From Nitrospirota bacterium (GTDB taxonomy: Bacteria > Nitrospirota > Thermodesulfovibrionia > Thermodesulfovibrionales > JdFR-88): DNA of 64,000 nucleotides. The translations under genes and the position numbers were made by a program. Every line of letters starts with the position of its first letter. Within the stretch, counting starts at the first letter, position 1. The notes below the pieces were generated by a model. That model was not told the origin of the DNA. It saw nothing but the letters and a program-made list of their open reading frames with translations, and made no database searches. The stretch is taken from assembly GCA_014874185.1 (NCBI GenBank), contig JACWAF010000005.1, positions 18,655 to 82,654 of the forward strand, in the 5' to 3' direction. Below are positions 6,828 to 15,140 of the stretch, in pieces.

Positions 6828-7043
6828 CTATCCGGGCCCCTCCCTTCTGCTGTTGCCGTCAGTCTTTTCGGCCTCTTCCCCGTCTTCCCTTTCCACCTTC
6901 TCGCCTGGTATCCTGTAATCCCCGCCCGCCCACCGGCCAAGGTCTATTGTCCTGCACCTCTCGGAGCAGAAGGGCCGCCAGGGGTTGCCCTCCCATTCGA
7001 TTTCCTTGCCGCACTGCGGGCAGCGAAGTTTTTTCTTCTTCAT
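6828..7043 (-). CDS. yacG: DNA gyrase inhibitor YacG
   Basis: CPQC...[18 protein letters not shown]...YRIPG zinc finger. Confidence 0.92.
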
Positions 7044-8200
7044 TTCTTTATTATGTTGACCTTTCCTTTCAGGTTGTCCGAGATGAAAACCTTCCCGTTG
7101 TCGTCGATGGTAACCGCCCCGAAGCCGAGCCGTTCCAACTGTTTCACCCGTTCAATGCCCTTCTGCGGGCCCATGACGAATATCCCCGTGGAGAACCCGT
7201 CAGAGAGATAGCCATGCGGCGCGATTATGCTTACGCTTTCGAACCCCCTTGCCGGATAGCCGGTCCTGGGGTTCAGGATATGGAAGTACATGACGCCGTT
7301 TTTGAAGAAATATCGCTCGTAGTCGCCCGATGTCGATATGCCCTGGTCAACAAGCTCCACAGTGGCGAATATGCCGCTTTGGCCATGGCCTTCAAGAGGG
7401 CGCGGGTCACGTATCGCAACCAGCCAGCCGTGCCCGTCGGGTTTCCTGCCGAACGCCTTTATGTCCCCGGCTATGGCAATAAGCCCGGCCTTTATCCCGT
7501 GCTCTTTCAGCACCCGCTCGGCATAGTCAGCGCCCCAGCCCTTGGCTATCCCGCCCGTGTCGAAGGTCATGCCCTTTCGTTTTAGAAAGACGGTCGAGTT
7601 TTTAGGGTCTACCACCACCTGCCTGTAATCCACGTCCTTCAAGGCCTTCTTTATGGCCGCGTCAGAGGGCTTTATCTGCCTGTGGAAGTCCCACTGGCTT
7701 ATAACAGGGCCGATGGTGCCGTCAAAGCCTCCGTCGGTCATTTTGGAGGCATAGAGGGCGTCCTGCACCAGGTCCAGCGTCTCAGGCGAGACCTTCACCG
7801 GCGCGACGCCGGCCTTGTCGCTGATGGCCCATATCTCGCTCTTTTTGTCCCAGAAACTTATCAGCTTTTCCAGCCTGTGGAGTTCGGCAAAGGCGGCGTC
7901 AATTGCCCCGTTGGCCTGCCTGCTGGAATCCGATACAACCGTGATCGTTACAAGCGTATCCATGATAATAGAGCTTTTTTTATAGATATTCTGTTCCGGC
8001 CTGGGGGAGCATGAAAAGAGCATAAAAGCGCACAGGAACAGAGAAAAAACTGAAAGACGTCTATTTAAGATATTGATTTTCATGGATGACCATGCACTCC
8101 AGGTCATTCCCGCGAAAGCGGGAATCCAGATCCAAAAATGTTTTTTGAAAGGCTTACAAACTGGATTCCCGCTTTCGCGGGAATGACGAACTATTTTCAC
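7040..8200 (-). CDS. apbE: FAD:protein FMN transferase lipoprotein (start GTG 8200 or ATG 8083)
   Basis: Lipobox [43 protein letters not shown]. Confidence 0.9.
8103..8187. repeat. RPE/dRS3-like palindromic element with 27-bp perfect inverted arms
   Basis: GTCATTCCCGCGAAAGCGGGAATCCAG ... CTGGATTCCCGCTTTCGCGGGAATGAC. Confidence 0.85.
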
Positions 8201-8308: not shown

Positions 8309-10819
8309 TTAATCGGAACCCTTTCCCAGCTTCCTCTTCAATGCCTCCCCCGTATGGGAGCCGGCAGTGGCCGCGACTTCCTCCGGCGTGCCCTGGGCCA
8401 CCAGGTAGCCGCCTTCCTCCCCGCCCTCCGGGCCAAGGTCTATTATGTAATCCGCCGATTTTATAATATCCAGGTTATGTTCCACAACAATTACCGTATT
8501 GCCCTTTTCCACCAGCCCGGTGAGCACCTTCAGAAGTTTCTCTATGTCCACGAAATGAAGTCCGGTCGTGGGCTCGTCAAGTATGTAGAGGGTCCGTCCG
8601 GTCCCTTTCTTTCCGAGTTCCCTTGAAAGCCGCACCCGCTGCGCCTCCCCGCCGGAGAGGGTTGTGGCGGGCTGGCCCAGTTTCAGATACCCAAGCCCCA
8701 CATCGTCAAGAACTCTGAGTTTTCTTTTTATGGGCAGCACGTGCTCGAAGAACTCACAGGCCTCGGAGATGGTCATCTCCAGGACTTCGGAGATGTTCTT
8801 CCCCTTGTACTTTATATCAAGCGTCTCCCTGTTATAGCGCTTGCCGCCGCACTCGTCGCACAGGACGTAGACATCTGGCAGGAAGTGCATCTCAACCTTC
8901 TTTAGTCCCTCGCCCTTGCAGTTTTCGCACCTGCCGCCGGGCACGTTGAAGCTGAAGCGTGATTCCTTATAACCCCTAACGCGCGATTCCCCGGTCAGGC
9001 TGAAGAGCCGCCTTATATAGCTGAAAATGCCCGTGTATGTTGCCGGGTTGGAGCGCGGTGTCCTCCCCAGCGGGGCCTGCTCTATTGCCACTATCCTGTC
9101 CAGGTGCTCCGTACCTCTTATCTCCCTGTGCTTTCCGGGTGTGGGCCCGGCCTTGTAGAGTTCCCTCTCAAGCGCCCTGTATAAAATATCGTAGACAAGC
9201 GTGCTCTTCCCGGAGCCGGACATGCCCGTCACGCAAACGAACATGCCCAGGGGTATTCGCACGTCCAGGTTTTTCAGGTTATATGCCTGCGCTCCCACTA
9301 TCTCCAGAAATTTTCCATTCGGAGGCCTTCTTATGCCGGGCACGGGTATCTCACGCGCGCCTTTCAGGTAGAGGCCGGTAATGGAATTGGCATTTCGTTT
9401 TATCTCTTCGGGGCTTCCGGAGGCGATAACCTTTCCGCCCAGCACGCCCGCGCCTGGCCCCATATCCAGTATGTGGTCCGCGCGGAGCATCGTTTCCTCA
9501 TCGTGCTCCACTATTATTATCGTGTTCCCCTGTGTCTTCAGCATGTCCAGGCTGTCCAGCAGGCGCATGGAGTCCCTGGGGTGAAGCCCTATCGTGGGCT
9601 CATCCAGGAGATACAGCACCCCCGTAAGGGAGGAGCCTATCTGGGTGGCCAGCCTTATCCTCTGCGATTCCCCGCCCGAGAGAGTGAGCGAGGTGCGGGA
9701 AAGGGTGAGATAGCCAAGCCCGACCTTCTCAAGAAAATGAAGCCTTTCAGTGACCTCTTTCAGGAGGCGCTCGGCTATGACCTGCTCCCTGGGGCCAAGC
9801 TCAAGTCTTTTTACAAACTGCCTGGCATCTTTAACCGGAAGCGACGCGAACTCGCCTATGTTCTTTCCCGCTATTTTTATACTGAGGGCCTCTGGCCTCA
9901 GCCGGAGCCCCTTGCATGCCTTGCAGGGCCTTTCTTCAACGATCTCCTCGGTCTCCTCGTCGATGTACTCGTAGCCCAGCCCCCGGCAGGCCGGACATGC
10001 GCCCGAAGAGCTGTTGAATGAGAAGAACATCGGGTTTATCTCAGGGTAGCTTATCCCGCAGTTGGGGCAGACCGCCTTCCTGCTGAATACCATGTCCTCG
10101 CCCCTGTCTATCAGGTTCACGACAATGGTATCCGAATACCGCAGGGCGCACTCTATCGAGTTCTTGAGCTGCCTTTCTATCCCGGGCTTTATTATGAGCC
10201 TGTCTATGACGATCTCGATCGTATGGCGCTTGTAGCGGGCAAGCTTCACGTCCTGGGTGATGTCCGCCATCTGCCCGTCTATACGCGCCCTTATGAAACC
10301 CTCGGAGCGCATCTCGGCAATCTCTTTCCTGTACTCGCCCTTTCTGTCGCGGACTATCGGGGAGAGCACCTGTATCCTGGTCTTCTCCGGGAACTGAATA
10401 AGTGTGTCCAGGATATCCGAGGTCTCCTGCCCGGCTATCTGCGAGCCGCACTTATAGCAATACGCCTTCCCAAGCCGCGTGTAGAGCACCCTCATGTAGT
10501 CGTAGATTTCTGTTATGGTGCCCACGGTGGAACGGGGGCTCTTGGTCACGGTCTTCTGGTTGATCGCGATGGAGGGGGAGAGCCCTTCGATGGAATCCAC
10601 GTCCGGTTTTTGAAGCTCCCCAAGGAACTGCCTGGCATAGGGCGAGAGGCTTTCAACATACCGCCTCTGTCCCTCGGCATAGAGCGTGTCTATCGCCAGG
10701 GAACTCTTCCCGGAGCCGGACGGGCCGGTTATGACCGTGGTCTTCTGCCTGGGGATGCGGACGTCTATATTTTTTAGATTGTGCTCCCTTGCGCCCTTTA
10801 TGATTATGAAGTCTTGCAT
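8309..10819 (-). CDS. uvrA: Excinuclease ABC subunit A (short form)
   Basis: GAREHNLKNI, GPSGSGKSSLA, two LSGGE signatures, LDEPT, zinc fingers. Start set at MQDFIIIKGA (10819). Confidence 0.95.
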   Translation of the reverse strand: MQDFIIIKGAREHNLKNIDVRIPRQKTTVITGPSGSGKSSLAIDTLYAEGQRRYVESLSPYARQFLGELQKPDVDSIEGLSPSIAINQKTVTKSPRSTVGTITEIYDYMRVLYTRLGKAYCYKCGSQIAGQETSDILDTLIQFPEKTRIQVLSPIVRDRKGEYRKEIAEMRSEGFIRARIDGQMADITQDVKLARYKRHTIEIVIDRLIIKPGIERQLKNSIECALRYSDTIVVNLIDRGEDMVFSRKAVCPNCGISYPEINPMFFSFNSSSGACPACRGLGYEYIDEETEEIVEERPCKACKGLRLRPEALSIKIAGKNIGEFASLPVKDARQFVKRLELGPREQVIAERLLKEVTERLHFLEKVGLGYLTLSRTSLTLSGGESQRIRLATQIGSSLTGVLYLLDEPTIGLHPRDSMRLLDSLDMLKTQGNTIIIVEHDEETMLRADHILDMGPGAGVLGGKVIASGSPEEIKRNANSITGLYLKGAREIPVPGIRRPPNGKFLEIVGAQAYNLKNLDVRIPLGMFVCVTGMSGSGKSTLVYDILYRALERELYKAGPTPGKHREIRGTEHLDRIVAIEQAPLGRTPRSNPATYTGIFSYIRRLFSLTGESRVRGYKESRFSFNVPGGRCENCKGEGLKKVEMHFLPDVYVLCDECGGKRYNRETLDIKYKGKNISEVLEMTISEACEFFEHVLPIKRKLRVLDDVGLGYLKLGQPATTLSGGEAQRVRLSRELGKKGTGRTLYILDEPTTGLHFVDIEKLLKVLTGLVEKGNTVIVVEHNLDIIKSADYIIDLGPEGGEEGGYLVAQGTPEEVAATAGSHTGEALKRKLGKGSD

Positions 10820-10922
10820 GTCCCTTCCTGCATATAATTCAACCATTTAGTATAAAAAATACCGGCCTGTTCTTTCAAACTGAATTTTTTGTCTTTTGGA
10901 CGGTTCTGTTTTATAATCTTTC

Positions 10923-11315
10923 ATGCGCTGGATTTTCATAACCGCCTTTGTTATTGCTTTTACCTTTCCGGTGTCCGTTAAAGCCAGCCCTCCCAGGGCT
11001 GTGTTCCAGAGTGAAGATTACGATTTCGGAGATGTAATGGAGGGAGTTACCCTGCAGCACGATTTCATCCTGAAAAACGCGGGGACGGACGTGCTTGTGA
11101 TCAAGAACATCATACCGACATGAGGGTGCACCGCGGCGCTTGCCAGTTCGGCAAGATTGAACTCCGGACAGGAGGCAAGGATAAGCGCTAAAGTTGACAC
11201 CAGGGGCCACAGCGGCCTTATGCTGAAGGGCATAAAAGTGCTCACCAATGACCCGCAGGTGCCGGCGATAATGCTTTTCATGCGGGCGAACATAGAGAAA
11301 GACAAGAAAGATTGA
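10923..11315 (+). CDS. DUF1573-like secreted Ig-fold protein, probable selenoprotein (UGA at 11121-11123)
   Basis: Signal peptide, YDFGDV..HDF.LKN.G...L.I, then T-[TGA]-GCT where the family has CGCT. The frame stays open through VDTRG...K.I.V.TNDP to TGA 11313-11315. Confidence 0.78.
11124..11165 (+). promoter_or_regulatory. Candidate bacterial SECIS element
   Basis: Stem CTTGCC/GGCAAG (11139-11155) with loop AGTTC (G at loop position 2), 21 nt after the UGA. Confidence 0.6.
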
Positions 11316-11346
11316 ACCTGGATCAGTCCCGCTTCCGGAGGACCAC

Positions 11347-12198
11347 ATGATCAGAAAGGCCGTCCTTTTCCTGAGGATGATAAAGTTTACCCACTCCGTA
11401 TTCGCGCTCCCTTTCGCCTTCACGGCGGCCATTATCGGGGCAGGCGGCATACCGTCCCTGAAACAGGCCCTCTGGATAGCCCTGGCCATGGTTGGGGCGC
11501 GCTCCGGGGCGATGGCCATGAACCGCATAATAGACAGGAAGATGGACGCGCTGAACCCGCGCACGCGGGGCAGGGAGATACCCTCGGGCAAGCTCCGCTT
11601 AAGCGAGGCCGCGTTCTTCGCGGCGGTCTCCTTCGCCCTCCTCGTGTATTCCGCCTACAGGCTGAACCCGCTCTGCTTCAAGCTTTCGCCCCTGGCGATC
11701 CTGATAGTGATCTTTTATTCCTACACGAAACGGTTCACCTGGGCGGCGCACATTTTTCTGGGCATGTCGATAGCTCTTGCCCCGCTTGGGGCCTGGATAG
11801 CCGTGACCGGGACCGTGGGCCTGAAAATCATTCCCATGGTAATAGCGGTCGTCTTCTGGCTCGCGGGCTTCGACATCCTTTACGCCCTGCAGGATCTGGA
11901 CTTCGACCGCGCACACGGGCTTTTTTCCATCCCCGCGCGTTTCGGCACCGGAAAATCACTGCTCATTTCGAGGCTCTGCCACGCGGTGTCCATAGCGATG
12001 CTCGTCCTGACGGGGTTTTTATTCGGACAGGGCGTCTTTTACTGGGCGGGGATGGCCTTCGTCTGCGCCCTGTTCGCCTACGAGCATTCCCTGGTCAGGG
12101 AGGACGACCTTTCCAGGCTTGACATGGCCTTCTTCAACATGAACGGCTGGATAAGCGTAAGCGTGCTTTTTTTTACGGCCCTCTCTTATCTGGCCTAG
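11347..12198 (+). CDS. UbiA-family prenyltransferase (MqnP/4-hydroxybenzoate octaprenyltransferase-like)
   Basis: IKFTHSVFALPF, NRIIDRKMDALNPRT, YSYTKRFT, GFDILYALQD, multiple TM segments. Confidence 0.88.
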   Translation: MIRKAVLFLRMIKFTHSVFALPFAFTAAIIGAGGIPSLKQALWIALAMVGARSGAMAMNRIIDRKMDALNPRTRGREIPSGKLRLSEAAFFAAVSFALLVYSAYRLNPLCFKLSPLAILIVIFYSYTKRFTWAAHIFLGMSIALAPLGAWIAVTGTVGLKIIPMVIAVVFWLAGFDILYALQDLDFDRAHGLFSIPARFGTGKSLLISRLCHAVSIAMLVLTGFLFGQGVFYWAGMAFVCALFAYEHSLVREDDLSRLDMAFFNMNGWISVSVLFFTALSYLA

Positions 12199-13082: not shown

Positions 13083-13099
13083 CCGGCACGCATATTGCT
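13083..13099 (+). promoter_or_regulatory. sigma54 (-24/-12) promoter of the diguanylate cyclase
   Basis: CCGGCACGCATATTGCT: GG-N10-GC with GGCACG and TTGC. The predicted start site lies very close to ATG 13113. Confidence 0.6.
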
Positions 13100-13112
13100 T
13101 ATCGAAGAAGGG

Positions 13113-15140
13113 ATGTTACATTTAGTTGACATACAGCTTCTCACGAGGGCATTCAAGTCTTTTACTGCTCTTACGGGCCTGAATTTCGCCCTGTACGACG
13201 ACAGGGAAAACCTGGTGATCGCCCCCGCCCGGGAGGACCCCGTGCTCTCGGTAATGAAGACGAGCAGAAAAGGCCAGGAGATATATGCCCGGTTTTTAGA
13301 GGAAAACCTGAAGCTTTCGTCGAAAAAGACAAAGGCGCATCTCGCAAGGGGCCCGGCAGGGCAGTTCCATCTGTTCATTCCCGTGCGCTACAAGGAGATT
13401 AACCTGGTCGCTCTGGGCGAGGCCTTCTATCCGGCCATGGAGGACTTCGTCAGGTTTTATGAAGAGATGGGGCCGGAGTACGGGCTGCTGGAAAAAGACC
13501 CCGTCGAGTGGTCCAGGGAAATAAACGTGCTGCCGGCCGGGACCGCCGAGTGCTATATAGAGGCCATCCAGCCGCTCCTTGAAAACATCATAGCCTCTGG
13601 ATACGAGAAGGGCGAACTGAGCAAGCACTGGCAATGGTCCAAAACCATTATAAACCTGGCCGCGAACATAAAATCAAGCACCTCGCTGAATGAGATAAGG
13701 CAGATGATAATCGACACGGTCATCTTCCTCTTCAACATAGATACGGTCGCGATCTTCTCCCTCCGGGACGGATATTTTTGCCCGGAGGCCGCGGGCGGCA
13801 GAAACAGGGATGTGGTCAGCCGTTTCCGGATAGCCGGGAGCAACAAGTTCATAGCCGGGGCGATGATGTCCGACATCCCCGTTTCGGCAATGGACAGCTA
13901 CAAGCTGTGGCACAACGGCTTCCCGGACGAGATAATCTCGATGTACCTGTTCCCGATATGCTCGGGAACAGGGATGAACGGCTTCCTGGGCGTCTTCAAT
14001 ACCCTCCTGGGCAGGGAGGCCTTCGATTCCATAAACGAGATATGCCGGATAACGGCGTACTTCCTCGACGTGAGAAACATGGGCGAGGAATTCGACAGGA
14101 AGAGCGTCTCCCTCAAGATGCTCACCGAGACGACCTCGCAGCTTTACGAGTTTTACAAGGAGCCGCAGAAGCTGTACGAGAGCATAGTGGCGGAAGCGGC
14201 CAATATAGCCGGGGCCGAGAAATGCTCCCTCATGCTTCCGGAGGACGGGGGCGACGTGCTCGCAATCAGCGCGGTCAAGGGCACAAGCCCCTGGCTGATG
14301 AAGGACGTGAGGGTGAGGAGAGGGGAGGGGATAGCCGGCAAGGTCTATGAACAGGGGGCCCCGATACTTATCGACGGCGAGGAGAGGATGCGGGACTATG
14401 CCGTGAGCCCGAAGCCCCTCTTCAAGACGGCCTCCTGCCTCAGCATGCCGCTGAAGGTGTCCGGCGAGGTTGTGGGGATACTGAACCTCTCGGACAAGCA
14501 GACCGGCGAGTCCTTCTCCGACGCCGACCTCATGGTGCTCGGGCCTTTTGCGCTCCATGCCTCCATACTCCTCAAACTGAGCCATTTCTACAATACGTCC
14601 CAGAAGATGAGGGAGCTTTCCATAACCGACCCGCTCACCGGCCTCTTCAACAGGCGCTATTTCGACGTGCGGCTTGAGGAGGAGTTCCAGCGGGCCAGGA
14701 GATACGGGCTCTCCTTTTCGCTGGCCATAATGGACATAGATGATTTCAAGGCCCTGAACGACACCGAGGGCCACATGGCCGGCGACCACGTCCTGAAGGA
14801 GCTGGCCCTCATAATGAACAGCTCGATCAGGGCAAATGACATCCTGGTGCGCTTCGGGGGCGAGGAGTTCGCCATCATAATGCCCCAGACCTCGAAGGAG
14901 GAGGCCTTCAACGTGGTGGAAAGGATAAGGAGCAACATAAGCACGCTCATGTTCCGGGCCCTGAAGGCATTCCCCGGCAAGAGGCTCACCATAAGCACGG
15001 GGATAGCGATGTACCCGGATGCCGGAGAGCAGATTGAGAAGCTGATCATCTGTTCGGACAGGGCCCTCTACAGGGCCAAGATGGGCGGCAAGAACAGGAG
15101 CGTCCTCTGGGAGCCGGACTGGGGCAGGAGGCCCGGTTAG
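13113..15140 (+). CDS. Sensor diguanylate cyclase (PocR-like/GAF/GAF-GGDEF)
   Basis: TDPLTGLFNRRYF, DIDDFK, RxxD I-site (RAND) five residues before GGEEF, and a GAF with GEGIAGKV. Start may be 13095 or 13113. Confidence 0.88.
   Translation: MLHLVDIQLLTRAFKSFTALTGLNFALYDDRENLVIAPAREDPVLSVMKTSRKGQEIYARFLEENLKLSSKKTKAHLARGPAGQFHLFIPVRYKEINLVALGEAFYPAMEDFVRFYEEMGPEYGLLEKDPVEWSREINVLPAGTAECYIEAIQPLLENIIASGYEKGELSKHWQWSKTIINLAANIKSSTSLNEIRQMIIDTVIFLFNIDTVAIFSLRDGYFCPEAAGGRNRDVVSRFRIAGSNKFIAGAMMSDIPVSAMDSYKLWHNGFPDEIISMYLFPICSGTGMNGFLGVFNTLLGREAFDSINEICRITAYFLDVRNMGEEFDRKSVSLKMLTETTSQLYEFYKEPQKLYESIVAEAANIAGAEKCSLMLPEDGGDVLAISAVKGTSPWLMKDVRVRRGEGIAGKVYEQGAPILIDGEERMRDYAVSPKPLFKTASCLSMPLKVSGEVVGILNLSDKQTGESFSDADLMVLGPFALHASILLKLSHFYNTSQKMRELSITDPLTGLFNRRYFDVRLEEEFQRARRYGLSFSLAIMDIDDFKALNDTEGHMAGDHVLKELALIMNSSIRANDILVRFGGEEFAIIMPQTSKEEAFNVVERIRSNISTLMFRALKAFPGKRLTISTGIAMYPDAGEQIEKLIICSDRALYRAKMGGKNRSVLWEPDWGRRPG

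What the first reader, a model, noticed from the sequence alone, without database searches (positions are those of the whole stretch)
10923..11315. Hidden selenoprotein: secreted DUF1573-like protein with a U-G-C motif and SECIS-like hairpin
Seen: the ORF track stops at TGA 11121, but the frame continues 63 more sense codons (GCTAALASSARLNSGQEARISAKVDTRGHSGLMLKGIKVLTNDPQ...) to TGA 11313. A 6-bp stem CTTGCC/GGCAAG with loop AGTTC begins its loop 21 nt after the UGA. Established: DUF1573 domains carry a CGCT motif at this spot and continue with ...K.I.V.TND. Bacterial SECIS elements lie just 3' of the UGA with a G early in a small apical loop. Inference: a 130-aa exported Ig-like protein with a UxC redox or metal-binding motif, directly upstream of a quinone prenyltransferase. 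No sel genes are in this window.
Basis: partly seen in the sequence, partly recalled or inferred. Interest (0 to 1): 0.75.

Follow-up and report, generated by a model that had tools for sequence, protein, structure and literature searches.

The report
Known-family DUF1573 selenoprotein gene, unannotated
The apparent stop codon in this small gene very probably encodes selenocysteine in an exported protein, but the protein family has been on published selenoprotein lists since 2007, so this is a correct catch and not a new kind of thing.

Summary
ORF 10923-11123 ends at TGA 11121, and the frame stays open to TGA 11313. One DUF1573 domain spans the TGA. The genome has selC, selA, selB and selD. 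In the window's copy and all 29 fetched loci of relatives in the same order, the TGA sits in the same column of an s-U-G-C-T-A motif, at 33-45% identity, with conservation on both sides. The hairpin 11139-11155 recurs with an unchanged AGUUC loop and covarying stems. Three genomes with no selA found carry TGC/TGT at this column and show only weak A+U-rich hairpins.

The family is known. OS_HP2 was published in 2007 and 2008 (pfam07610, UxC). Reviews of 2022 and 2026 list "DUF1573, PF07610, UGC". This scan already holds 38 such findings on other DNA.

New here:
- This Nitrospirota branch scores below NCBIfam's OS_HP2 cut-off.
- 11 of 30 relatives fuse the domain to a cytochrome c with two CxxCH motifs, and one fuses it to SCO1/SenC.
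- Public gene calls cut such genes just after the Sec codon.
- The genome also has a SelC*-type tRNA-Cys, so UGA might sometimes be read as Cys.

Function is unknown. It is probably a periplasmic Se-S redox or soft-metal site.

The parts
10889..10917 (+). sigma-70-like promoter match TTGTCT-17 nt-TATAAT, ending 5 nt before the ATG. This suggests a leaderless or nearly leaderless mRNA (inference).
   Evidence: 10 of 12 matches. 2 sites were found in 1.7 kb against 0.9 expected, so this is weak evidence.
10923..11315 (+). Whole selenoprotein gene: 130 codons including UGA-67, then the true stop TGA 11313-11315.
10923..10985 (+). Probable Sec-type signal peptide, MRWIFITAFVIAFTFPVSVKA, with cleavage inferred after VKA.
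   Evidence: Read from the sequence. AF2 gives a helix at 3-14 with lower pLDDT. The relatives show hydrophobic N-termini, most ending in (Y/H)AQP just before the domain. No signal-peptide predictor was run.
11004..11291 (+). DUF1573 (PF07610) Ig-like/PapD-like domain, residues 28-123, continuous across the UGA.
   Evidence: 68.9 bits. (pLDDT 92.6, strands on both sides of residue 67). (HYDIN, VesB/VesC, 2qsv).
11121..11123 (+). UGA read as selenocysteine (U67), the first residue of the U-G-C motif.
   Evidence: Same column in 30 of 30 loci. TGC/TGT in Cys forms L061-L063.
11127..11129 (+). TGC, Cys69, the partner of U67. It is invariant in the alignment.
   Evidence: invariant columns C67, G68, C69.
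11139..11155 (+). SECIS hairpin: stem 11139-11144 / 11150-11155, loop AGUUC 11145-11149.
   Evidence: Contigs of a co-occurring relative match the window only over 11121-11155.
11347..12198 (+). Downstream UbiA-like polyprenyltransferase (MqnP-like), probably co-transcribed.
   Evidence: TIGR01475 303 bits, cut-off 180.8. No terminator-like site between the two genes. One RNA-library contig spans 11224-11412 (weak).
8309..10846 (-). Divergent uvrA. This is a synteny anchor and not part of the system.
   Evidence: UvrA_inter domain. The same arrangement occurs in 11 of 30 loci.

Best explanation
10923-11315 is one gene for an exported 130-residue protein of about 109 residues after signal cleavage. 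It has a DUF1573 Ig-like fold. UGA 11121 is recoded to selenocysteine by SelB and tRNA-Sec, guided by the hairpin 11139-11155 inside the coding sequence. The gene belongs to the published OS_HP2 / 'DUF1573, UGC' selenoprotein family. That part carries the confidence of 0.9 given here. The biochemical role is inferred. U67 and C69 sit in and just after a three-residue turn between two strands. I think they most likely cycle between selenol/thiol and a selenylsulfide, and that they exchange electrons with c-type haem in the periplasm. In many relatives the haem domain is fused to the same protein; here it would act in trans. I give that role about 0.45, and a soft-metal (Cu(I)-type) site about 0.3.
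For: SHOWN.
(1) One Pfam domain spans the TGA. The AF2 model is a single sandwich with strands at 26-65 and 69-125, pLDDT 92.6, so a 66-residue product would be half a domain.
(2) selC (71.9 bits, UCA anticodon, G73), selB, selA and a selD that itself holds a TGA are all present.
(3) 33 of 61 genomes of the order have the gene, and 35 of 37 places carry exactly one TGA. In 30 of 30 fetched loci the TGA aligns with U67, with conservation on both sides at 33-45% identity.
(4) SECIS: in 29 of 30 loci the best hairpin has (A/G)GTTC in its loop, and in 25 of 30 the loop starts 21 nt after the UGA. There are 17 different 5' arms. In a fixed register, 83.7% of cells pair against 68.1% in shuffles (0 of 500 reach it). 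35 cells changed on both sides against 11.9 (0 of 500). All slid controls are at or below 54% (28 loci, with L049 and L051 left out for a 3-nt insertion). Ser codon +8 is AGT in 27 of 28 loci. Third-position identity is 0.54 over codons 0 to +11 against 0.34 elsewhere.
(5) Cys forms L061-L063 have TGC/TGC/TGT at the column and only weak A+U-rich hairpins. selA was not found in their three genomes, nor in a fourth genome of that family, G067, whose no-stop form I did not inspect.
(6) TGA ends 20 of 42 long ORFs in the window, so it is an ordinary stop here.
(7) The TGA is unchanged in contigs of three DNA runs of one study (two of them may be the source).
INFERRED (role): 11 of 30 relatives fuse the domain to a cytochrome c domain with two CxxCH motifs, and one fuses it to SCO1/SenC. 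Neighbours include ResB/CcsA in 3 of 30 loci and an AhpC/TSA thioredoxin-like gene in 2 of 30.
Against: - There is no experimental evidence of selenium in this protein or, in what I read, in any member of the family.
- RNAalifold's own consensus did not recover the hairpin, because two sub-groups use registers one base apart. Rfam gave no SECIS match.
- The protein and all 29 relatives score below NCBIfam's OS_HP2 cut-off (62.7-90.5 bits against 100).
- One genome with a TGA form (G058, 98% complete) showed no selA. G061 has selA but a no-stop form whose residue at the Sec column I did not inspect.
- The genome also has a SelC*-type tRNA-Cys, which could put Cys at this UGA.
- Against a strictly redox role: P0002 and P0005 have S-G-T in place of U-G-C. 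No partner cytochrome could be tied to this gene in its own genome. The fold matches are generic Ig-like domains with no redox precedent.
Confidence: 0.9

Rival explanations
1. The gene is recoded as described, but the U-x-C pair is a soft-metal site (Cu(I), or Hg/Cd/As-type ligands) for binding or hand-off in the periplasm, not a redox couple.
For: One relative fuses the domain to SCO1/SenC, a copper-chaperone family, with a thioredoxin-like AhpC/TSA gene downstream. JGI's automatic name for two relatives is 'cupredoxin-like copper-binding protein' (weak). The DNA runs that hold this stretch are labelled mine drainage metagenome. An earlier scan note places a DUF1573 Sec gene in a copper island (e1-2132142; not checked by me). 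From recall, not from any call: CxC motifs bind Cu(I) in some copper chaperones.
Against: No His or Met is conserved beside U67 and C69. The invariant columns are N52, G54, L58, I60, C67, G68, C69, S76, G98, K102 and N109. The commonest fusion partner is a haem protein (11 of 30), not a metal chaperone (1 of 30). No metal-resistance genes were seen beside the window's copy.
Confidence: 0.3
2. The UGA is recoded through the same hairpin and SelB, but mostly or conditionally with cysteine carried by the SelC*-type tRNA (tRNA-ReC). The product would then often be a Cys protein.
For: G000:C37:56224-56316(-) scores 52.3 bits on tRNA-Sec (cut-off 47). It has a GCA anticodon and U73 followed by CCA. 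These are the published marks of SelC* tRNA-Cys, which is reported from Nitrospirae and Thermodesulfovibrio (passages of PMC5389517). It is said to allow SECIS-dependent UGA decoding as Cys with either anticodon (passages of PMC13582414 citing Vargas-Rodriguez 2018, a paper I did not read).
Against: Canonical selC, selA and selD are all kept, and selA is found in 60 of 61 genomes of the order. If Cys were wanted, a TGC codon would do without a hairpin, as in L061-L063. How work is shared between the two tRNAs is stated to be unclear in the paper read.
Confidence: 0.12
3. The TGA is a true stop: a pseudogene, a fresh nonsense mutation, an assembly error, or two separate small genes (10923-11123 and a TTG start at 11157).
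For: Standard gene calling stops at 11123. Public databases hold relatives called as separate downstream pieces.
Against: The TGA is kept in the same column in 30 of 30 loci at 33-45% identity, with amino-acid conservation continuing after it. A covarying hairpin follows. The domain and fold are continuous across it. The DNA is identical in three runs. It is the only DUF1573 gene in the genome.
Confidence: 0.02
4. The organism reads TGA as a sense codon generally (code 4 or code 25).
For: None beyond the open frame.
Against: TGA terminates 20 of 42 long non-overlapping ORFs in the window, and the gene itself ends at TGA 11313.
Confidence: 0.01

Closest known systems
OS_HP2 / 'DUF1573 domain-containing protein' selenoprotein family. 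Sources: Zhang & Gladyshev 2007, PMC1976440 (section 12 and Table 2 read); GOS paper 2008, PMC2398784 (table passage read); reviews PMC9312934 and PMC13188914 (table passages read); NCBIfam NF041425.
   Same: Same Pfam domain (PF07610), same Sec position and the same U-G-C (UxC) motif. The SECIS lies in the coding sequence just after the UGA. Cys homologues carry CGC. Function is unknown.
   Different: This protein and all 29 relatives of its order score 62.7-90.5 bits, below NF041425's 100-bit cut-off, so it is a sister branch of NCBI's curated subfamily. The lineage is different: public names of relatives say Nitrospirota/Thermodesulfovibrio, while the family was first found in deltaproteobacterial worm symbionts. 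In this branch the domain is often fused to a cytochrome c with two CxxCH motifs. The passages I read do not mention that fusion.
Bacterial intragenic SECIS elements (E. coli fdhF type; bSECISearch model). The model's criteria are recalled, not taken from a call. [quoted passage not shown]
   Same: A hairpin directly 3' of the UGA, a small apical loop with G at its second position, and a loop that starts 21 nt after the UGA.
   Different: The stem here is short (6 bp in the window, mostly 5-7 bp in relatives). The loop core AGUUC is fixed across the order while it also encodes Ser-Ser. Rfam gave no SECIS match above noise.
PapD-like / ASH / HYDIN-VesB Ig-like domains (PDB 2e6j, 3qbt, 2qsv, 6bqm, 4lk4).
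   Same: Same beta-sandwich fold (Foldseek probability 1.00, TM-score on the query 0.57-0.69). 2qsv is also found by sequence (E = 4.4e-4).
   Different: None of the listed entries is titled as a redox or metal protein. The one whose alignment I saw, 2qsv, has no Cys at the CGC position. The fold says nothing about the chemistry.
SelC* tRNA-Cys / tRNA-ReC (Mukai et al. 2016/2017, PMC5389517, passages read; Vargas-Rodriguez 2018, known to me only as cited in PMC13582414).
   Same: The second tRNA-Sec-like gene of this genome has U73, a GCA anticodon and a long variable arm.
   Different: It lies on another contig and is not part of the locus. Whether it acts on this UGA is unknown.

Membership tests
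Pfam PF07610 (DUF1573) | Score above the gathering cut-off over the whole domain | tested here: met
   68.9 bits against 26.1, residues 28-123 on profile positions 3-97 of 98.
Published DUF1573 / OS_HP2 selenoprotein family | In-frame UGA at the first Cys of the CGC motif (UGC/UxC), with Cys homologues at that column | tested here: met
   U-G-C in 28 of 30 loci and U-R-x-C in 2. TGC/TGT in L061-L063. CGC in P0008. The motif is as listed in the papers.
NCBIfam NF041425 OS_HP2_seleno (subfamily_domain) | Score at or above the curated cut-off of 100 bits | tested here: not met
   82.2 bits for the window's protein and 62.7-90.5 bits for the 29 relatives. It is the best NCBIfam hit but lies outside NCBI's curated subfamily.
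Bacterial selenoprotein gene (general) | The genome encodes selC, selA, selB and selD | tested here: met
   tRNA-Sec 71.9 bits with ARAGORN SeC(tca); selB 359.8 bits; selA 627.2 bits; selD 348.3 bits with 1 TGA. All are above their cut-offs.
Bacterial selenoprotein gene (general) | SECIS hairpin just 3' of the UGA, supported by covariation | tested here: met
   Caveats: RNAalifold's own consensus missed it, Rfam gave no match, and bSECISearch was not available.
Bacterial selenoprotein gene (general) | Selenium shown in the protein (75Se or mass spectrometry) | not testable with these tools
   No such data were seen for this protein or for the family in the passages read.
Exported protein | N-terminal signal peptide | tested here: inconclusive
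   A hydrophobic segment at residues 3-17 and VKA|S were read from the sequence. AF2 gives a helix at 3-14. Relatives are similar. No signal-peptide predictor was run.
UbiA-like polyprenyltransferase (TIGR01475) for the downstream gene | Score above the cut-off | tested here: met
   303.2 bits against 180.8. The MqnP models are below their cut-offs (316.3 against 430), and haem o synthase scores only 63.3 bits.
SelC* tRNA-Cys / tRNA-ReC (side observation) | tRNA-Sec-like shape of at least 80 nt, GCA or UCA anticodon, U73 discriminator | tested here: met
   52.3 bits on RF01852; 93 nt plus U73 and CCA; anticodon loop CU-GCA-AA.

The most novel reading that the evidence does not exclude
The Nitrospirota branch may be a distinct Sec-DUF1573 subfamily that acts as the catalytic end of an unrecognised periplasmic selenoenzyme. 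The branch lies below NCBI's OS_HP2 cut-off and is systematically truncated in public gene calls. In this reading, electrons pass from menaquinol-linked c-type haems to a Se-S centre on an Ig-like scaffold, which reduces a chalcogen or metal(loid) substrate. The haems are fused in cis in 11 of 30 relatives and would act in trans here. The site would be switchable between Sec and Cys through the co-resident selC and selC* tRNAs.
Probability: 0.12. Interest if true: 0.6.

Novelty: new member of a known kind. Interest (0 to 1): 0.25.

Why it matters
It corrects an annotation. A 66-residue call should be a 130-residue selenoprotein, and the same error affects many Nitrospirota records, where the downstream part is named only 'c-type cytochrome'. 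It adds a well-supported lineage to a selenoprotein family whose function is still unknown. It also gives functional leads: fusion to a cytochrome c with two CxxCH motifs, fusion to SCO1/SenC, and thioredoxin-like and cytochrome-c-assembly neighbours. These make the family's chemistry testable. Canonical selC and a SelC*-type tRNA-Cys occur in the same genome, which makes this small, abundant and easily assayed gene a convenient reporter for how the two tRNAs share UGA decoding. None of this changes what is known about Sec decoding itself.

Tried and rejected
- Folding of the 68-nt context gave z = -0.16, which is no support on its own.
- RNAalifold on 28 aligned loci returned a different, weak consensus (-1.19 kcal/mol) and missed the hairpin, because two sub-groups pair in registers one base apart. 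I therefore counted pairs on a structure that I named myself and scanned each locus separately.
- Rfam at E up to 10 over 10900-11400 gave only chance hits: mir-7177, SNORD123 and sR44.
- The search for homologous proteins with the single protein found nothing. The alignment was needed.
- A search of the window's genome with the cytochrome-c part of L029 found nothing. The Pfam family finds 4 places on other contigs, with no link to this gene.
- In one search two of the four folds (L033, L061) used wrong coordinates that missed the hairpin region. I discard them.
- The idea that the UbiA neighbour explains the function is rejected as unsupported. UbiA is downstream in 7 of 30 loci, 6 of them in the window's own family. 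Other loci have PCMT (5), DksA (4), ResB/CcsA (3) or unrelated genes.
- Haem o synthase as the identity of the UbiA gene is rejected (63.3 bits against a cut-off of 210.3).
- RNA evidence: one 210-nt contig of an RNA library covers 11224-11412, but nothing covers the UGA. This cannot show transcription of the 5' half or Sec insertion.
They were re-sent corrected.

Full report
OBSERVATION. ORF 10923..11123 (66 aa) stops at TGA 11121-11123. The same frame then runs 63 more sense codons to TGA 11313-11315. The stem CTTGCC (11139-11144) / GGCAAG (11150-11155) encloses the loop AGTTC, which starts 21 nt after the UGA. With Sec or Cys at the TGA, Pfam DUF1573 (PF07610) matches residues 28-123 at 68.9 bits (cut-off 26.1), that is, across the TGA. 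TGA is otherwise an ordinary stop here. It ends 20 of the 42 long non-overlapping ORFs in the window, and it ends this gene too.

SEC MACHINERY. The 2.43-Mb genome (42 contigs, 100% complete by marker genes) holds the following.
- A tRNA-Sec: 71.9 bits; ARAGORN calls it SeC with anticodon tca; discriminator G73.
- selB: 359.8 bits.
- selA: 627.2 bits.
- A selD that itself carries one in-frame TGA: 348.3 bits.
All are above their cut-offs and all lie on contigs other than the window's. Two earlier notes of this scan report other Sec genes in the same genome. I did not check them.

CONSERVATION OF THE TGA. I searched 61 genomes of the same order, the window's included, with the read-through protein. 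33 have a match. Of the 37 places, 35 carry exactly one in-frame TGA and 2 carry none. I did not inspect the residue at the Sec column in those two.
I fetched 30 loci: the window's own copy and 29 from relatives. In all 30 the TGA aligns with U67, inside an s-U-G-C-[TS]-A-x-x-[AV]-S-S block. The alignment continues to ...K.[IV].V.[ST]ND at 33-45% identity. Two loci (L049, L051) have a one-residue insertion, U-R-x-C.
The genome has only this one DUF1573 gene.
selA is found in 60 of the 61 genomes. The exception, G058 (98% complete), does carry a TGA form.
Across the phylum (301 genomes, profile search), 131 have a match. By my hand count, 108 of the 150 listed places hold at least one TGA and 42 hold none; 7 more places were not listed. 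I checked the column only in the fetched loci.
Three no-stop forms from another family (L061-L063) have TGC, TGC and TGT at the Sec column, in the motif TTS-C-GCTAAL. selA was not found in the three genomes they come from, nor in a fourth genome of that family, G067, whose no-stop form I did not inspect. These genomes are 85-100% complete. G061, of another family, has a no-stop form that I did not inspect and does have selA.

SECIS. On its own the hairpin is modest: -8.9 kcal/mol, z = -2.24, with 6 of 200 shuffles as good. The 68-nt context gives z = -0.16. The comparative evidence is strong.
- In 29 of 30 Sec loci the best hairpin within reach of the UGA has (A/G)GTTC in its loop.
- In 25 of 30 the loop starts exactly 21 nt after the UGA.
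- Stems are 7 bp (16 loci), 6 bp (7), 5 bp (6) or 4 bp (1), with 17 different 5' arms.
On an ungapped alignment of 28 loci I counted pairs on one named register; L049 and L051 were left out because of their 3-nt insertion. 83.7% of cells pair against 68.1% in shuffles (0 of 500 reach it). 35 cells changed on both sides against 11.9 (0 of 500). All slid controls are at or below 54%.
RNAalifold's own consensus missed the hairpin, because the CTTGCC class (5-nt loop) and the ATGGCT/GTGGTC class (6-nt loop) pair one base apart.
At codon level, Ser +8 is AGT in 27 of 28 loci (GGT in the other) and is never another Ser codon. Third-position identity is 0.54 over codons 0 to +11 against 0.34 elsewhere. 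For columns of similar amino-acid conservation it is 0.53 against 0.345.
The three Cys forms have only weak, A+U-rich hairpins of 4-6 bp (n = 3, so this is a hint).
In two DNA runs, short contigs of a co-occurring relative match the window only over 11121-11155, the UGA plus hairpin, with 3 differences in 35.
Rfam gave no SECIS match.

THE PROTEIN. AF2 on 26 aligned sequences gives pLDDT 92.6 and pTM 0.80. Four of the 30 were left out: L042 and L043 for uncertain starts, L049 and L051 for a different architecture. The model has an N-terminal helix at 3-14, which is the hydrophobic signal-like segment, followed by eight strands. U67 lies in the three-residue turn 66-68, and C69 opens the next strand.
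Foldseek finds PapD-like/ASH Ig domains: HYDIN 2e6j, OCRL 3qbt, the P. gingivalis protein 2qsv, and VesC/VesB, with TM-scores on the query of 0.57-0.69. By sequence only 2qsv is found for this domain, and it has no Cys at this position.
The invariant columns are N52, G54, L58, I60, U67, G68, C69, S76, G98, K102 and N109. No His or Met is conserved.

CONTEXT AND FUSIONS. A sigma-70-like match (TTGTCT-17-TATAAT) ends 5 nt before the ATG. No terminator-like site separates the gene from the UbiA gene at 11347. That gene is a UbiA-like polyprenyltransferase: TIGR01475 scores 303 bits (cut-off 180.8), the MqnP models are below their cut-offs, and it is not a haem o synthase.
Across the 30 loci the neighbourhood is only partly kept:
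- divergent uvrA upstream: 11 of 30
- UbiA downstream: 7 of 30 (6 of them in the window's own family, plus L045)
- PCMT: 5
- DksA: 4
- ResB/CcsA cytochrome-c assembly genes: 3
- transglutaminase-like plus AhpC/TSA: 2
The architectures say more. 11 of 30 relatives carry a C-terminal cytochrome c domain (PF13442) with two CxxCH motifs. L049 has an N-terminal SCO1/SenC domain, and L051 a CarboxypepD_reg-like domain (I scanned the 13 long proteins of the 30).
The window's genome has no detectable separate copy of that cytochrome domain when searched with a single query. It does have 4 PF13442 places elsewhere.

WHAT IS KNOWN. OS_HP2 ('Olavius symbiont hypothetical protein 2') was reported as a new selenoprotein family in 2007 (PMC1976440; section 12 and Table 2 read). 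The 2008 GOS paper lists it as pfam07610 with motif UxC, 2 Sec sequences and 354 Cys homologues (PMC2398784, table passage). [quoted passage not shown] The main text of the BSepDB paper does not name the family, and I did not open its supplement. A full-text search for 'DUF1573' returned 4 papers, none on function.
NCBIfam has a model for the family, NF041425. The window's protein scores 82.2 bits and the 29 relatives 62.7-90.5 bits, all below the 100-bit cut-off. This order therefore carries a sister branch of the curated subfamily.
This scan already holds 38 findings on DUF1573 UGC selenoproteins in other genomes, and the follow-ups listed call it a known family. Those are AI notes and not independent evidence.

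PUBLIC ANNOTATION. A profile search of 5.8 billion proteins gave 262 hits. Many are 153-165-residue proteins that cover about 40% of the query and are named 'c-type cytochrome [Nitrospirota bacterium]' or 'hypothetical protein [Thermodesulfovibrio sp.]'. I fetched five of these short forms. Four begin at the Met of U-G-C-T-A-x-M-A-S-S (MASS.../MASL...). The fifth begins at a GTG codon just before the same A-S-S (VVASS...). They are gene calls cut off just after the Sec codon. P0002 and P0005 are full-length forms with S-G-T in place of U-G-C, so the motif can be lost.

MECHANISM.
Shown: recoding signals, the Sec machinery, Sec/Cys pairs, and one continuous fold.
Inferred: export, from the signal-like N-terminus.
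Inferred: chemistry. A selenol and a thiol two residues apart at a turn can form a selenylsulfide or hold a soft metal. The commonest fusion partner is a cytochrome c with two CxxCH motifs, and cytochrome-c assembly and thioredoxin-like genes recur nearby. I therefore favour a periplasmic Se-S redox centre that exchanges electrons with c-type haem (about 0.45) over a Cu(I)-type metal site (about 0.3). The metal reading is supported by the SCO1/SenC fusion and by the metal-rich habitat label of the runs. The chemistry of CxC motifs that I rely on here is recalled and comes from no call.

CAVEAT. The genome also has a second tRNA-Sec-like gene (G000:C37:56224-56316, minus strand). It scores 52.3 bits on RF01852 against a cut-off of 47. 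Its anticodon is GCA, and it has U73 followed by CCA. These are the published marks of SelC* tRNA-Cys / tRNA-ReC, which is known from Nitrospirae and Thermodesulfovibrio (PMC5389517, passages). It is said to allow SECIS-dependent UGA decoding as Cys (PMC13582414, passages citing Vargas-Rodriguez 2018, which I did not read). So residue 67 could be Cys in part or under some conditions. I give 0.12 that this is the main outcome.

VERDICT. This is a real selenoprotein gene, correctly spotted (confidence 0.9). It is a new member, in a Nitrospirota sister branch, of a selenoprotein family catalogued since 2007. Its function is still unknown. Interest 0.25.

Noticed in passing
G000:C37:56224-56316 (-) = L002:1501-1593 (-); not in the window: A second tRNA-Sec-like gene with a GCA (Cys) anticodon and U73 plus an encoded CCA. 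It meets the published SelC* tRNA-Cys / tRNA-ReC criteria. It is followed on the same strand by a 201-aa protein with a TusA sulfurtransferase domain.
   Followed up: partly
L029, L032, L033, L034, L037, L038, L040, L045, L047, L048, L050 (relatives): Sec-DUF1573 fused to a C-terminal cytochrome c domain (PF13442) with two CxxCH motifs. Cys versions of the same fusion occur in another family (L061-L063).
   Followed up: partly
L049 and L051 (relatives): A U-R-x-C variant of the motif on proteins with an N-terminal SCO1/SenC domain (L049) or CarboxypepD_reg-like domain (L051). Each is followed by a transglutaminase-like gene and an AhpC/TSA thioredoxin-like gene.
   Followed up: partly
P0029, P0062, P0075, P0084, P0085 (public proteins): Public gene calls of 153-161 aa, three of them named 'c-type cytochrome' or 'hypothetical protein' in Nitrospirota or Thermodesulfovibrio records. 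They start just after the Sec codon and so are truncated selenoprotein genes.
   Followed up: yes
P0002, P0005 (public proteins): Full-length DUF1573-cytochrome c proteins with S-G-T where relatives have U/C-G-C, so the Sec/Cys pair has been lost.
   Followed up: no
G000:C12:134861-135784 (-): selD carries one in-frame TGA, so the selenophosphate synthetase is probably itself a selenoprotein.
   Followed up: no
window 11121-11155, runs X2 and X3: Short contigs from a co-occurring relative match the window only over the UGA plus hairpin, with 3 differences in 35 and unlike flanks. Their loose ends look like the L046-type orthologue.
   Followed up: partly
window 7040-8200 (-): A weak match to ApbE (FAD:protein FMN transferase): 126.8 bits, far below the 498-bit equivalog cut-off.
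   Followed up: no
window 13095-15140 (+): A 681-aa ORF whose C-terminal part contains a GGEEF motif, so it is probably a diguanylate cyclase. This was read from the translation; no family search was run.
   Followed up: no
L043 and L046 (same family as the window): A PilZ-domain gene is inserted between the selenoprotein gene and the UbiA gene.
   Followed up: no
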